DNA of 64,000 bases from Octopus sinensis (Eukaryota), in NCBI RefSeq assembly GCF_006345805.1, contig NC_043009.1, positions 62,310,001 to 62,374,000 on the forward strand, in the 5' to 3' direction. Shown here in pieces: positions 7,255-51,192 of this stretch; within the stretch, counting starts at the first letter, position 1, and every line of letters starts with the position of its first letter. The notes beneath the pieces are model-generated. The model had not been told where the DNA came from and made no database searches. It was given only the letters and a program-made list of their open reading frames with translations. A program made the translations under genes and the position numbers.

Positions 7255-7920
7255 CTTTTGCTTGTTTCAGCCATTAGACTGCGGCCATGCTGGAGCACCG
7301 CCTTGAAGAATTTAAGTCGAACGAATGGACTCCAGCACTCTTTACTTACTTGTTTCACTCACTTGACTGTGGCCATGCTGGAGCACCGCCTTTAGTCGAT
7401 CGAGCAAATCGATCCCAGGACTTATTCTTTGTAAGCCTAGTACTTATTCTATCGGTCTCTTTTGCCGAACCGCTAAGTTAGGGGGACGTAAACACACCAG
7501 TATCGGTTGTCAAGCGATATTGGGGTGACAAACACAGACACACACACATATACACACATACATATGCATACATATATACTACGGGCTTCTTTCAGTTTCC
7601 GTCTACCAAATTCACTCACAAAGCTTTGGTTGGCCCGAGGCTATAGTAGAAGACACTTACCCAAGGTGACATGCAGTGGGGCTGAACCCGGAACCATGTT
7701 GTTCGTAAGCAAGCTACTTACTACACAACCGCTCCTACGCCTATTCTTTTCTGGTACCTATTCTATCCTGGTACCTATTCTATCGTTAGTTTTGCCGAAC
7801 CGCCACGTTACAGGGACGTAGACACACCATCACCGGTTGTCAAGTGAGGGTGGTGAGGAGGAGGGTACAAGCACAGACACAAATGCACACGCACTCACAC
7901 GCACACACACACATACATAC
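7255..7920 (-). mobile_element. Cluster of SINE family A copies (full copy ~7346-7744 plus two fragments)
   Basis: Reverse complement of family A segments. Confidence 0.85.
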
Positions 7921-8131
7921 ATAAATATGATGCTCAGTTCTCCGAGTGTATGAATCTAAATATAAACCAATACTTGTGCTGCTACTCCGAGTTAGTCAGG
8001 ACGTCATCGAAGAAATAAAACGGCATCGATTTTGGTCGTTCAGCGTTTGATTTATTGACTTTTTGTTGTCTGCATTTGTTTAGATTTTATGTCCGAATTT
8101 AGCAGCGGCGGAAGCAGCAGCAGTAGCAGCT

Positions 8132-9603: not shown

Positions 9604-10840
9604 CACAGACATGACAGAAGTAAATAGGCACCCTTGTGATCATTAAAATTTATTTAAATTTCAAATTATGCATTCATATTATTTATTAATTATTATAATA
9701 TGAATATTTAATATTTAGTAGACATTTGCATTCTTCAATGCAAGGATCGTATGGGGCATGATACTGATCAGATGACGAATATTCTCTTGGGGAATTTCTT
9801 GCCAAGTTTCATGCAGTAATATCAAAAGATTTGGCTTTGAAGATTCTTTCTTGTTCTTTTAACGAAGTGTCCTGTGCCTTATGTCCCTAAGGTGTTCAAT
9901 AGGGTTCATATCTGGTGACTGGCTCGGCCATAGAAGTTTTTTAATGCTATTCTTTTCCAACCGATCTTGGGTCATTTTAGTCATGTAACAAGGAGCCCTA
10001 TCTTCCATAAATAGCCTTCTTCAATCATTTCATCATTGGAGAAGATTGGAAAGAGTCCTTTCTGCAATATGGACACATATTTATCTGAGTTTATGTTACC
10101 CTGACACTCCACCAGCTCTGATTGACCATTGCTCCATATTGCTCCCCAGATTATCTCAGGGTAGCTGCCTTGTTTCATTGTTGGATGCAATCTTTGCATG
10201 TCAAATTCTTGATCACAGAGTCTCCAGACCCACACTCGACCGCTGTCAGAGAATACAACAAATCTGGACTCACCAGAGAGTGTGACTGTGTCCCAAAATG
10301 TGTCCCTCTCCATCATCTCACTGGTCCAATCTTTTCTCCACTTGATATTGGTTGGTCGAAGAAGTGGCTTCCTTCATGTTGCTCTGCCATAGTAGCCAAG
10401 TTTGTGGAGATACCTGACAGCTGTTCTGGGACTGACATCAACTTGTTCTGCTATGCCAGGGGCCCTGCAATGAGGATTATCCTCCACATTTCACTTAACA
10501 AAGCAAAGGGTCCTATCAGAGGGCTCTGGTTGACTTGAACAAGGTGAGGCTGACTCGTTCCCCTCTCTGGTGAATTGCACAGTCACCCTATCAACTGTAG
10601 GAAACGGTATCCCAAGGTTTTATGTGATTATACGTTAAGACCCACTTTTAGATTGACCCACAATATGGCCGCTTTGAAATTTGGATAGTTCGAAGGCTTC
10701 TTTTGTACGAGCCATGATTAAACAGTCACATAAAGAACCTGAAACATGTCCATTAATAAAACAAATATAAATCTTTTCGAATAAAAAAAAACATAAAACA
10801 ATGTTTTAAGGGGTGTCTATTTACTTCTATCATGTCTTTG
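9604..10840 (-). mobile_element. Full-length Tc1 DNA transposon
   Basis: ~30-bp TIRs CACAGACATGACAGAAGTAAATAGGCACCCTT / AAGGGGTGTCTATTTACTTCTATCATGTCTTTG, TA on both sides, internal transposase. Confidence 0.95.
9708..10715 (-). pseudogene. Tc1 transposase pseudogene, DD34E
   Basis: MARTKEAFELSKFQSGHIVG start, IIWGAIWSNGQSELVECQGNINSDKYVSILQ, FMED(34 aa)E ending WPSQSPDMNPIEHL, C-terminal STKY*; several stops and frameshifts. Confidence 0.92.
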
Positions 10841-16300: not shown

Positions 16301-16519
16301 CCTGTTTTATTTCATTTTAGGAACATCTTAATTTGGAATGTTTGCAAGATCACATGGTCCAACTTCATCTTCACCAGTTAAATAGGTGTGGAAAAACAGC
16401 CAAGAGGTATCTCTCCTTGCAACACCTCATCGAACATTTTCTTTAGAATTTCTTTACCATTGAACTTCAGGAAGAGATTCAGTTATGCCAACATGACTTT
16501 TTATTCGTTCTTATTTTTT

Positions 16520-17143
16520 TATTGCCCACAAGGGGCTACACAAAGAGGGGACAAACAAGGACAGACAAACAGATTAAGTCGATTACATCGACCCCAGTGC
16601 GTAAATGGTACTTATTTAATCGACCTCGAAAGGATGAAAAGCAAAGTCAGCCTCGGCGGAATTTTAACTCAGTACGTAACGGCAGACGAAATACTGCCAA
16701 GCATTTCGCCGGCGTGCTAACGCTTCTTATTTTTTTATTGCCCACAAGGGGCTACACAAAGAGGGGACAAACAAGGACAGACAAACGGATTAAGTCGATT
16801 ATATCGACCTCAGTGCGTAACTGGTACTTATTTAATCGACCCCGAAAGGATGAAAGGCAAAGTCGACCTCGGCGAAATTTGAACTCAGAATGTGGCGGCA
16901 GACGAAATACCTATTTCTTTACTACCCACAAGGGGCTATACACAGAGGGGTCAAACAAGGACAGACAAACGGATTAAATCGATTATATCGATCCCAGTGC
17001 GTAACTGGTACTTATTTAATCGACCTCAAAAGGATGAAAGGCAAAGTCGACCTCGGCGAAATTTGAACTCAGAATGTAGCGGCAGACGAAATACGGCTAC
17101 GCATTTCGCCCGGCGTGCTAACGATTCTGCCAGCTCACCGCCT
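16520..17143 (-). mobile_element. SINE family B head-to-tail trimer
   Basis: Three tail-1 units; junctions at ~16725 and 16904-16917. Confidence 0.92.
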
Positions 17144-18022: not shown

Positions 18023-19410
18023 ATTTCTATTCTTTTATTGGTTACAAGGGCCCACGATACTGAGAACAATATAGAAGGATGAGATGCATCTCACAGAAAG
18101 TGGTATTTACATCGATCTAAAGGAAACCAACCCCATTAAAGATATGACAAAAAAATATATATATATAAGTAGAATTCACAAAATTTCAACAGGAAAAATT
18201 CCCCAATAACTGACCATTCAGTCCACACAGAATAATTCGCAGGTAGGACCTCACACCGAAAGATCCGGATTACTCAACCATCTCCAAGGCGTCGAAATTG
18301 CCATCCCGCGGTTTATTTCTTCTTACTTACAAAAACCTTGTCAGTATTTGCTCAGACTGACTCGTCAGTCTTGCCACACTCACTCACATTTCTTTAAATC
18401 ACTTGAAAGCAACACTGTCGACCATCACCTTCTTCGTAAAATGGTACTTGAAGATATTGATGAGAATTTGGCCAGGTAGAAGACGGCGAGCTGGCAGAAT
18501 CGTTAACGCGTCGGGCGAAACGCGTAGCCGTATTTTGTCTGCCGTTACGTTCTGAGTTCAAATTCCGCCGAGGTCGACTTTGCCTTTCATCTTTTCGGGG
18601 TCGATAAATTAAGTACCTGTTACGCACTGGGGTCAATATAATCGACTTAATCCGTTTGTCTGTCTTTGTTTGTCCCCTCTGTGTTTAGTCCCTTGTAGGT
18701 AGTAAAGAAATAGGTATTTCGTCTGCCGTTACGTTCTGAATTCAAATTCCGCCGAGGTCGACTTTGTCTTTCATCCTTTTCGGGGTCGATTAAATAAGTA
18801 CCAGTTACGCACTGGGGTCGGTGTAATCGACTTAATCCGTTTGTCTGTCCTTGTTTGTCCCTTCTATGTTTAGCCCCCTGTGGGCAATAAAGAAGTAAAT
18901 TTGGCCAGGTAGGAGAAAGCTTGACTGCAAACGTTTCAGACGAGTCCATTCTTCTTTGTCAAAGAAGCAGACGCGTCGATCTTTACTATGAACTCGGTGG
19001 ACGACTAGATTCGTCCTATGTGTGGAAGCAACTCTTCGACGCAAGCCTACAAATCGCTAAAGCACACACACACCGAAGAAAGACATGTTGGACGATTCTG
19101 TCCGACGGCAAGCATTTCGGAGAGGTTCGGCTTTTGGCGGTTCCATGCCTGTTGAGCTTTTCTCCGGGCCTCTAGGTCCAGTGCTAAAAATCTCCACTGG
19201 CCAACATGGATTTGCCTTTTTAAGTGTCTAGCTTCAAGGCCACCGACTTGTTCTGGCTCCTGTGTACTCCTGAACAGTATAGTTTTTATATTTGAAATAC
19301 TAGACACCATGATAGGGACCTCATACTCGCAACTTCCCGTTGAAGAAATGGCGGAGAGCCATTCTCGTAACAAGCGCTTCGTTTCCAATGCCTCCTCCAT
19401 GTACCTCTTC
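18023..19410 (-). mobile_element. L1/Tx1-clade LINE 3' remnant (ORF2 C-terminal Cys/His region and 3' UTR)
   Basis: RHGTAKSRTSPKCLPSDRIVQHVFLRC / FSDL*ACVEELLPHIGRI / WTRLKRLQSSFLLPGQI, continuing past the SINE as LINIFKYHFTKKV...FKEM*VSVAR; ends CCCTTGTAACCAATAAAAGAAT. Confidence 0.7.
18480..18897 (+). mobile_element. SINE family B dimer with 15-bp TSD
   Basis: AATTTGGCCAGGTAG at 18465-18479 and 18898-18912; junction at 18707-18720. Confidence 0.95.
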
Positions 19411-23384: not shown

Positions 23385-23951
23385 CTTGTCTACTAAAGGT
23401 AGAAGGTCTGAAATTTGACAGGGAAGGGTTAGTCGATTACATAGAGCCCAGCACTCAGCTGGCGCTTATTTTATCAACCCTGAAAGGAAAGTCAACATCG
23501 GAGGCATCTGAACTCAACATAAAGCTAGACGAAATACCTATTTCTTTACTACCCACAAGGAGCTAAACACAGAGAGGACAAACAAGGACAGACAAAGGGA
23601 TTAAGTCGATTATATCGACCCCAGTGCCTAACTGGTACTTAATTTATCGACCCCGAAAGGATGAAAGGTAAATTCGACCTCGGCGGAATTTGAGCTCAGA
23701 ACGTAGCGGCAGACGAAATACCTATTTCTTTACTACCCACAAAGGGCTGAACACAGAGACGACAAACAAGGACAAACGGATTAAGTCGATTATATCGACC
23801 CCAGTGCGTAACTGGTACTTATTTAATCGACCCCGAAAGGATGAAAGGCAAAGTCGACCTCGGCGGAATTTGAACTCAGAACGTAGCGGTAGACGGAATA
23901 CCGCTTAGTATTTTGTCTGGCGTGTTAACGATTCTGCCAGCTCGCCGCCTT
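23385..23951 (-). mobile_element. SINE family B trimer (two young tail-1 units, one degenerate tail-2 unit)
   Basis: Junctions at 23531-23544 and 23715-23728. Confidence 0.92.
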
Positions 23952-50427: not shown

Positions 50428-50498
50428 CACCACACACACAAACACGCATATATATAATATATATATATATATACTTTATTTCAAAGCAGCAGAAATTC

Positions 50499-50552
50499 AA
50501 CAAAACATGTTACTCTGAGTTTCACGTTCCCGTTCGTCGGACAGTATTTGTT
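50499..50552 (-). ncRNA. Second hammerhead copy on the opposite strand
   Basis: Minus strand reads CTGT-CCGACGA-ACGGGAACGT-GAAA-CTC A GAG-TA^ACAT. Confidence 0.75.
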
Positions 50553-50581
50553 AACAATTTTAACAAATTTTAACAGATTTT

Positions 50582-50635
50582 AACAAAAACTGTCCGACGA
50601 ACGGGAACGTGAAACTCCGAGTAACAGGTTTTGTT
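50582..50635 (+). ncRNA. Minimal type I hammerhead ribozyme (U4C core variant)
   Basis: CTGT-CCGACGA-ACG GGAA CGT-GAAA-CTC C GAG-TA^ACAG: stems I, II and III all pair around the core; predicted cut after A50623. Confidence 0.8.
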
Positions 50636-50736
50636 GAATTTTGCTGCTTTGAAATAAAGCATATTACTCTACCCCTGGTATTTGAGTACTCTTTTTTCCA
50701 CCTTATTTCACATTTATGTGTTTACTCCGGTATATA

Positions 50737-50830
<94 letters not shown>

Positions 50831-51192
50831 CATATATATATACAACCGGCTTTCGTCAGTCAAATCCACTCAAGCCGACGCTATAGTAGAAGACACTTGC
50901 CCAAGGTTCCACGCAGTGAGACTGAACTCGGAACCATGTAGTTGGGAAGCAAGCTCCTTATTACACAGCCATGTATGTAAGCATTTATGTATGTGTGTAT
51001 GGTTTATTGAAACAATGTTTTTCTTGCATTTCGAGTTTTAAGTCACCGCGATCTACAGGTGAGAACAGTTACAACTCGGTTTGGTGGTAGTTCCTTTTAA
51101 CTCGGTGGTGTATTTGTCATTTCTTGCATACGTATGTTTGTGTATACATATATACATATACATTATATATACACACACACACACAAACACGC

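What the first reader, a model, noticed from the sequence alone, without database searches (positions are those of the whole stretch)
50474..50731. Palindromic insert with a hammerhead ribozyme fold on both strands and a non-canonical U4C core
Seen: 50474-50554 and 50579-50659 are near-perfect inverted repeats around short TTTTAACA-type repeats. The plus arm reads AACAAAAACTGT-CCGACGA-ACG(GGAA)CGT-GAAA-CTC(C)GAG-TA^ACAGGTTTTGTT: stem I pairs over ~12 bp with one mismatch, stem II is 3 bp with a GNRA loop, stem III is quasi-palindromic, and the cleavage triplet is GUA. The minus arm has the same fold and differs at the stem III centre base and two stem I positions. Both have CCGACGA rather than CUGANGA, so the variant predates the inversion and strict-core searches would miss it. 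Known: minimal type I hammerheads with palindromic stem III occur in Penelope-like terminal repeats and metazoan retrozymes, often cleave as dimers, and Penelope insertions often carry inverted 5' segments. Inferred: a (TA)n-targeting ribozyme-bearing retroelement family; any read-through transcript holds one ribozyme downstream of its own antisense, which could mask it and create an ADAR or Dicer substrate.
Basis: partly seen in the sequence, partly recalled or inferred. Interest (0 to 1): 0.85.

Follow-up and report, generated by a model that had tools for sequence, protein, structure and literature searches.

The report
Penelope retroelement stub with variant hammerhead
This palindrome is one of thousands of short head-to-head stubs left by a Penelope-like jumping gene, and its hammerhead motif carries a C where hammerhead ribozymes nearly always have a U, a change that most subfamilies of the element share and that likely weakens self-cutting without having stopped the element from spreading.

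Summary
The palindrome is a 5'-truncated insertion of a 3.4-kb Hydra-clade Penelope-like element (PLE) in (TA)n. The fold-back shape is routine: 81 of 130 sampled loci have it, and 79 of those 81 pair one 'long' end with one 'short' end about 70 nt apart, the known PLE tail signature. C at hammerhead position 4 is not local decay: 1,012 exact copies in this subfamily against 80 with U, close to the mirror CpG-decay control (52); 2,374 of 5,094 family-wide. The oldest subfamilies sampled carry C4; the canonical U4 dominates only the youngest, probably a reversion (the outgroup tree did not confirm the direction). Every other core base and stem pair is unchanged across subfamilies, while the free positions vary. 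Copies do not begin at the cleavage site; they pile up 33-50 nt upstream of it, at the 5' edge of stem I. Cleavage was not tested, and nothing supports a masking, ADAR or Dicer role. Natural U4C is known from a viroid; I found no report of it in a retroelement. Verdict: new variant of a known kind, useful as a natural allelic series for what PLE hammerheads do.

The parts
50450..50473 (.). Left (TA)n target flank
   Evidence: sequence; its last 5 bases also match the first letters of the tail
50474..50554 (-). Inverted arm of the PLE 3' end, beginning at the proximal ('short') end site
   Evidence: same start in the partner arms of the best genome hits
50496..50554 (-). Hammerhead-like motif, minus copy: C4 at 50539, putative cut 50511/50510, stem I damaged by two substitutions, loop III base A
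50555..50578 (.). Junction filler: short tandem copies of the element's own sequence just 5' of stem I, likely polymerase slippage while the two arms were joined
   Evidence: similar fillers at other loci; mechanism inferred
50579..50731 (+). Direct arm of the PLE 3' end, running to the distal ('long') end site
   Evidence: 97% identical over 153 nt to the best of 40 scored genome hits; 4 differences in 148 columns from the majority of related best-hit arms
50579..50638 (+). Type I minimal hammerhead-like motif: core CCGACGA 50594-50600 (C4 = 50595), 3-bp stem II with GGAA loop, palindromic stem III, putative cut 50623/50624, loop III base C
   Evidence: stems I and III match the published Hydra-2_aMil motif
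50660..50731 (+). 72-nt 'tail' between the two end sites; in full-length copies it continues into the 5' UTR and the ORF (ATG 175 nt after the cut site)
50731..50842 (.). Right (TA)n target flank

Best explanation
The palindrome is a truncated head-to-head insertion of a Hydra-clade Penelope-like retroelement, likely made when the element's enzyme primed reverse transcription on both cut strands of a (TA)n target, and its hammerhead motif has an inherited U4C core that likely cuts slowly, if at all. Steps: (1, shown) full-length copies are about 3.43 kb, with hammerhead, tail, a 712-codon RT/endonuclease ORF, a long 3' UTR and a second hammerhead. (2, inferred from the Anolis PLE biochemistry, PMC11167929) the protein nicks both strands of AT-rich DNA and starts cDNA at two sites about 70 nt apart; one strand uses the distal site, the other the proximal site. 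(3, shown as a pattern, cause inferred) both cDNAs usually stop 33-50 nt upstream of the cut site and are joined by microhomology or slippage; I favour run-off at the RNA's 5' end slightly over annealing at the A/T-rich 5' strand of stem I. (4, shown) the templates were uncut RNA, because the copies span the cut site. (5, inferred) the hammerhead fold is still under selection, as a slow dimer- or protein-assisted ribozyme, while fast cleavage is not needed for making insertions, which is why a weakening U4C allele could found thousands of copies; the youngest subfamily regained U4, a CpG-type change.
For: Family: 1,993 candidates for the arm. ORF with RWK, DKT, YRDD, CxCx5C linker, no CCHH, CxxC and CxH matches the Hydra definition and, by eye, the published Hydra-1_Obim protein; a model of the closest database homologue (59% identical) has an RT fold, with TERT among the top Foldseek hits. 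End rule: 79 of 81 loci with an inverted pair have one long and one short end. Two priming events: several multi-kb copies end short at one side and carry an inverted long arm at the other, which a single fold-back cannot make; the two arms carry different family alleles (A against C) at loop III in 4 of 15 best-hit pairs, this locus among them. C4: 1,012 against 80 U4 and 52 G5A; in 8 of 11 sampled U4 loci with two readable arms the partner arm still has C; C in 21 of 26 readable cores of subfamily E and 13 of 15 of F. Ages by non-CpG divergence of the tail: F 8.7%, E 10.3%, D 4.2%, C1 5.9%, B 4.5%, C0 1.3%, A (U4) 0.9%, n = 4-16 each. Constraint: 6 of 39 motif positions differ among subfamily majorities and 4 of them are the 4 free ones (hypergeometric p 2e-4, or 5e-3 with a looser definition); 0 of 33 remaining positions vary against 24 of 122 upstream (p 0.002). 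ORF kept under selection along the C4 lineage: 80 of 119 fixed differences are at third codon positions. 5' ends: 47 of 59 partner arms at risk stop at -50..-33, 3 of 71 at the cut site; U4 subfamily counts 3,298 just 3' of the cut, about 2,700 at the core, 396 at -68..-43.
Against: No cleavage was measured. No compensatory pair change within the family; 11.1 goes U, G, A, breaking the 10.1-11.1 pair; counting positions 4 and 11.1 as constrained gives 2 of 35 against 24 of 122, p 0.07. The tail is about as conserved as the motif, so the constraint could come from a promoter or protein-binding role. The set of 'free' positions was fixed after seeing the data. Stem II is only 2-3 bp, shorter than in nearly all published Hydra motifs. 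The protein tree with distant outgroups (quick method, careful run unfinished) put its root among the U4 copies, and site polarisation was split (closest outgroup 6 for A, 10 for C; top-40 majority 18 for A, 12 for C), so the reversion rests on copy ages from small samples. U4 exceeds the G5A control slightly (80 against 52, p 0.02), and 3 of 11 U4 loci have U in both arms, so a few U4 source copies may have existed in the C subfamilies. In an unselected sample of 30 U4 arms the pile-up is milder (12 stop at -33..-50, about 14 run further once two indel artefacts are corrected) and one arm starts at the cut site. The 396 count misses a sequence variant of that subfamily. No GIY-YIG structure appeared among the listed Foldseek hits; Pfam and PDB sequence searches found nothing.
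Confidence: 0.62

Rival explanations
1. The motif is catalytically dead in the C4 subfamilies and is kept for another reason (RNA structure bound by the element's protein, a stop or joining signal for reverse transcriptase, or an overlapping internal promoter); U4 in the youngest subfamily is a neutral CpG change.
For: U4C is reported to reduce in vitro activity considerably (PMC3088659); stem II is minimal; copies span the cut site in both C4 and U4 subfamilies; dead hammerhead mutants did not impair insertion by the Anolis PLE in vitro and no RNA-seq reads ended at its cut site (PMC11167929); the tail is equally conserved.
Against: All eight other single-stranded core bases and GUA are unchanged from the oldest to the youngest subfamily while N7, the loop 2 N, loop III and the stem I mismatch base change; a viroid with U4C stays infectious.
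Confidence: 0.25
2. The C4 motif is a fully active natural core variant, rescued by dimer formation, loop contacts or the element's protein, and cleavage is part of the cycle at a step that leaves no trace in the insertions (for example processing or circularising tandem transcripts).
For: More than 2,300 exact C4 copies over several successive subfamilies; palindromic stem III dimerises in prediction; the Anolis PLE hammerhead is protein-assisted.
Against: Published effect of U4C; the most recent large expansion uses U4; no 5' ends at the cut site.
Confidence: 0.1
3. The palindrome is itself a selected unit: a small non-autonomous element or regulatory hairpin in which one arm masks the other ribozyme or feeds ADAR or Dicer.
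For: A read-through transcript would form a stable hairpin.
Against: Junctions differ from locus to locus, so the palindrome is rebuilt at each insertion and not copied as a unit; the locus sits among simple repeats with no recognisable coding context; this copy has ordinary decay, including a break in stem I.
Confidence: 0.03

Closest known systems
Hydra-clade PLEs (Craig et al. 2021, PMC8557442; section 11, passages and supplement parts 1-2 plus search hits read), including Hydra-1_Obim and Hydra-2_aMil
   Same: C-terminal endonuclease, RWK, DKT, CxCx5C linker, no CCHH, CxxC/CxH, (TA)n targets, 3' hammerhead with palindromic stem III; stems I and III of Hydra-2_aMil match this motif.
   Different: A separate family from Hydra-1_Obim (different hammerhead, about 3.4 kb against under 3 kb); core CCGA where all 26 listed Hydra rows have ctga (these were found with a canonical-core descriptor, so the table cannot show C4 cases); stem II only 2-3 bp.
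Minimal hammerheads of metazoan PLEs (Cervera and de la Pena 2014, PMC4209133; parts 1-2 of 4 and supplement passages read)
   Same: Type I motif in the pLTR, dimer-type stem III, thousands of truncated copies, pairs on opposite strands, low activity expected.
   Different: Core variant reported there is the compensated U3-A8; no U4C in what I read; G10.1-C11.1 is absent here.
Poseidon PLE of Anolis, PAc (Frangieh et al. 2024, PMC11167929; parts 1-2 of 4 read)
   Same: Two reverse-transcription start sites that define the tail; both strands cut and extended; uncut RNA is the template.
   Different: Other clade; tail 72 nt here; the ORF starts 175 nt after the cut site, not inside the ribozyme; the near-strict one-long-one-short rule and the 5' stop at stem I are genomic patterns measured here.
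Natural U4C viroid hammerhead (Ambros and Flores 1998; paper not held, known to me only through one sentence and the reference list of PMC3088659)
   Same: Same core substitution; reduced in vitro activity yet compatible with replication.
   Different: A viroid variant, not a fixed state of a high-copy retroelement lineage.
Inverted pLTRs with junction palindromes in Adineta vaga Penelope elements (Arkhipova et al. 2013, PMC3846280; passages read)
   Same: Head-to-head inverted pLTR, tail at one end, palindrome at the junction.
   Different: That paper proposes self-priming; the long copies and allele-discordant arms here fit two priming events better.

Membership tests
Hydra-clade PLE | Single ORF with PLE-type RT followed by a C-terminal GIY-YIG-type endonuclease | tested here: met
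   712-codon ORF in longer copies; RT fold for the closest homologue; the endonuclease is recognised by motif (GVVY..TYTG, R, H, E, N) only, with no Pfam or fold hit
Hydra-clade PLE | RWK and DKT motifs; CxCx5C linker; no CCHH; CxxC and CxH around the conserved E and N | tested here: met
   most copies read CNC in the linker, some CNF
Hydra-clade PLE | (TA)n insertion preference | tested here: met
   183 of 202 outer ends
Hydra-clade PLE | Phylogenetic placement with named Hydra elements | not tested
   similarity to Hydra-1_Obim judged by eye; no tree with named references
Hydra-clade PLE | Length under 3 kb (typical, not strict) | tested here: not met
   3,405-3,486 nt between hammerheads in 5 copies, owing to a long 3' UTR
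PLE (general) | pLTR from partial tandems, inverted 5' copy, tail at one end | tested here: met
Hammerhead ribozyme | Three helices around the core, NUH triplet | tested here: met
   stem III closes only in a dimer
Hammerhead ribozyme | Conserved core CUGANGA...GAAA | tested here: not met
   U4 is C in this copy and its subfamily; all other core bases match; the youngest subfamily meets it
Hammerhead ribozyme | Match to an Rfam hammerhead model | tested here: not met
   the U4 version also fails, so the test is insensitive to this minimal type
Hammerhead ribozyme | Covariation of stem pairs | tested here: inconclusive
   none within the family; present by eye across other Hydra families
Hammerhead ribozyme | Site-specific self-cleavage | not testable with these tools
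   only assembled contigs were available
Non-LTR retrozyme | Non-coding head-to-tail tandem monomers, each with a type I hammerhead | tested here: not met
   copies are dispersed stubs of an ORF-bearing element; definition from bioRxiv 10.64898/2026.07.22.740005, part 1 of 5 read

The most novel reading that the evidence does not exclude
A retroelement lineage kept its hammerhead tuned down: for several successive subfamilies and thousands of insertions the source elements held a U4C core with every other catalytic base intact, then switched back to U4 in the latest burst. The fold does a second, non-cutting job, its 5' edge marking where two cDNAs, often copied from two different RNA molecules by a dimeric enzyme, stop and are joined, which mass-produces hammerhead palindromes.
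Probability: 0.22. Interest if true: 0.7.

Novelty: new variant of a known kind. Interest (0 to 1): 0.42.

Why it matters
What PLE hammerheads are for is still open (PMC8557442, PMC11167929). This family offers a dated natural allelic series (C4 or U4; U, G or A at 11.1; three GNRA loops) with copy numbers attached, so cleavage rate can be set directly against transposition success. It also shows that strict-core searches can miss about half of a family's motifs, and gives genome-scale support for two-site, two-strand priming in a second PLE clade. The single locus has no sign of a function of its own.

Tried and rejected
Rfam: only sub-threshold miRNA-hairpin hits, no hammerhead. Pfam and PDB sequence searches of the ORF and homologues: nothing useful. 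Local decay as the source of C4: rejected. An older U4 ancestor inside the family: not found; E and F carry C4; still older relatives were not reached. Cleaved RNA as the main template: rejected, no excess of 5' ends at the cut site; the 3 arms ending there are also explained by stem I microhomology. A splice acceptor at -41 as the cause of the 5' pile-up: subfamilies A, B and C0 have an AG there, but C1, D and E do not and show the same pile-up, and no recurrent exon-like filler was seen by eye. Single fold-back self-priming as the only mechanism: cannot give multi-kb short-ended copies with inverted long arms. Rooting with database homologues: uninformative or contrary. Neptune clade, my first guess from memory: dropped when the motifs matched Hydra. 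Expression: no RNA holder listed on record; contigs of 4 runs, two only guessed to be RNA, hold both U4 and C4 (29, 19, 81 and 55 contigs with C4; organisms coded A to D) but cannot show RNA ends, strand or level. Literature searches for U4C or this family: and supplement searches; only the viroid case turned up. The library lacks most subscription papers, Repbase and Dfam were not available, and one supplementary file of PMC4209133 could not be searched, so an earlier description cannot be excluded.

Full report
1. Observation. The two arms are there as described, with three substitutions and one single-base indel, around a 10-nt tandem filler. The plus arm has the full type I layout with CCGACGA at 50594-50600 and the cut site at 50623/50624. 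Rfam finds no hammerhead, here or in the U4 version of the family. As a monomer the hammerhead fold is 4 kcal/mol above the minimum-energy fold, while the palindromic stem III pairs in trans, the usual dimer arrangement of PLE hammerheads (PMC4209133).

2. What it belongs to. The plus arm has at least 1,993 candidate relatives in the genome. Walking upstream through longer copies gave full elements of 3.4-3.5 kb: hammerhead, 72-nt tail, short 5' UTR, a 712-codon ORF, about 1.1 kb of 3' UTR and a second hammerhead. The copies I translated carry stops or frameshifts. The ORF has every motif given for the Hydra clade and resembles Hydra-1_Obim by eye, whose hammerhead differs, so this is a separate family. 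A confident model of the closest database homologue matches reverse transcriptases including TERT. The host looks like an octopus-type cephalopod; that rests on recalled repeat sequences and the Hydra-1_Obim likeness and was not tested.

3. The palindrome is routine. Of 130 sampled loci, 81 have an inverted pair, and in 79 one arm ends at the proximal site and the other at the distal site (one search lists 83 rows because two loci were counted twice). Thirty of the 130 were chosen for a full long arm, the other 100 by genome position and an exact core. Outer ends run into (TA)n in 183 of 202 cases. Junctions differ between loci. This is the known inverted-pLTR-plus-tail structure (PMC8557442, PMC3846280), and the two ends fit the two reverse-transcription start sites shown in vitro for the Anolis PLE. 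Two priming events fit better than one fold-back: multi-kb copies with a short end carry inverted long arms, and in 4 of 15 best-hit pairs, this locus included, the arms carry different family alleles at loop III; no such A/C discordance occurred in the other 42 pairs.

4. Position 4. In this subfamily context there are 1,012 exact C4 copies, 80 U4 and 52 of the mirror CpG-decay product G5A. In 8 of 11 two-armed U4 loci the other arm still has C. So C4 was in the source elements. Family-wide a degenerate pattern gives 5,094 matches, 2,374 with C4; by hand count 54 of the first 100 listed are one U4 haplotype, subfamily A. The subfamilies form a ladder D-C1-C0-B-A (E and F had too little upstream sequence to enter the tree). 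The most diverged copies, E and F, have C4 in 21 of 26 and 13 of 15 readable cores, with U4 and G5A at similar low rates, and A is the least diverged. I read U4 in A as a reversion, at about 0.75. Against this, a quick protein tree with distant outgroups rooted among the A copies and site polarisation was split; C0, which has C4, is nearly as young as A, so more than one lineage was probably active at once. Both alleles occur in contigs of four runs coded as four organisms.

5. Is the fold selected? Among subfamily majorities 6 of 39 positions vary: N7, the N of the GNRA loop, the loop III base, the stem I mismatch base, 11.1 and 4. The first four are the positions a hammerhead leaves free (p 2e-4 to 5e-3, partly post hoc). 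The other 33 never change, against 24 of 122 upstream positions; with 4 and 11.1 counted the contrast falls to p 0.07. There is no compensatory change within the family, and the tail is conserved too, so this shows constraint that matches a hammerhead, not catalysis. Across other Hydra families stems I and III covary and Hydra-2_aMil shares both with this motif; all 26 rows there have U4. U4C is known in nature from a viroid, with much lower in vitro activity but retained infectivity (PMC3088659); I found no retroelement case.

6. Where copies begin. If cut RNA were the template, copies would begin at the cut site. Only 3 of 71 partner arms at risk do, whereas 47 of 59 stop 33-50 nt upstream, a roughly 20-fold higher stop rate per base than inside the core. 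Genome counts for the U4 subfamily agree: 3,298 just 3' of the cut, about 2,700 over the core, 396 further upstream (patterns differ in length and the last misses one variant). An unselected sample of 30 arms shows a milder pile-up and one arm at the cut site. So uncut RNA is the main template in C4 and U4 subfamilies alike, as in vitro for the Anolis element. The cause of the upstream stop is open: an RNA 5' end there (about 0.45) or annealing at the A/T-rich 5' strand of stem I (about 0.4).

7. Verdict. The element class, the palindrome and the dimer-type hammerhead are known. New are the family itself, a U4C core held through several amplifying subfamilies with a probable late reversion, and the counts behind the one-long-one-short rule and the 5' stop. 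Activity is untested. New variant of a known kind; interest 0.42.

Noticed in passing
L050:2918 (+), L083 (- strand, 799), upstream part of L023: Another repeated minimal hammerhead-like motif with core CUGUUGA (A6U) and a 4-5 bp stem II; possibly a second family with a fixed core variant.
   Followed up: no
L175:1010 (+), L187, L258: A third motif family with the same stem II, one copy reading CCGACGA and two reading CUGAYGA; could be an independent C4 case or a single mutation.
   Followed up: no
L101 5028-5030 (- strand) and other subfamily A/B1 copies: In the U7 subfamilies the core contains an ATG opening a 29-codon upstream ORF; the C7 subfamilies, including this locus, lack it. In the Anolis PLE the main ORF starts at this place.
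   Followed up: no
L215, L216, L219, L174: Nearly the same inverted junction recurs at independent loci, pointing to a preferred microhomology just 5' of stem I.
   Followed up: partly
L003, L128, L163, L175, L181, L192, L209, L211, L217: When arms run beyond the usual stop, both tend to be of similar length, as if the two cDNAs advance together.
   Followed up: no
L067 (oriented 7513-8013): An unrelated PLE endonuclease fragment with cysteines inside the GIY-YIG motif lies inverted next to a copy of this family.
   Followed up: no
window 16508-17094, 18530-18894, 23481-23902: Tandem pairs of a 180-216 bp SINE-like repeat.
   Followed up: no
window 9981-10373 (-): Fragment that reads like a Tc1/mariner-type transposase (label from memory).
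   Followed up: no
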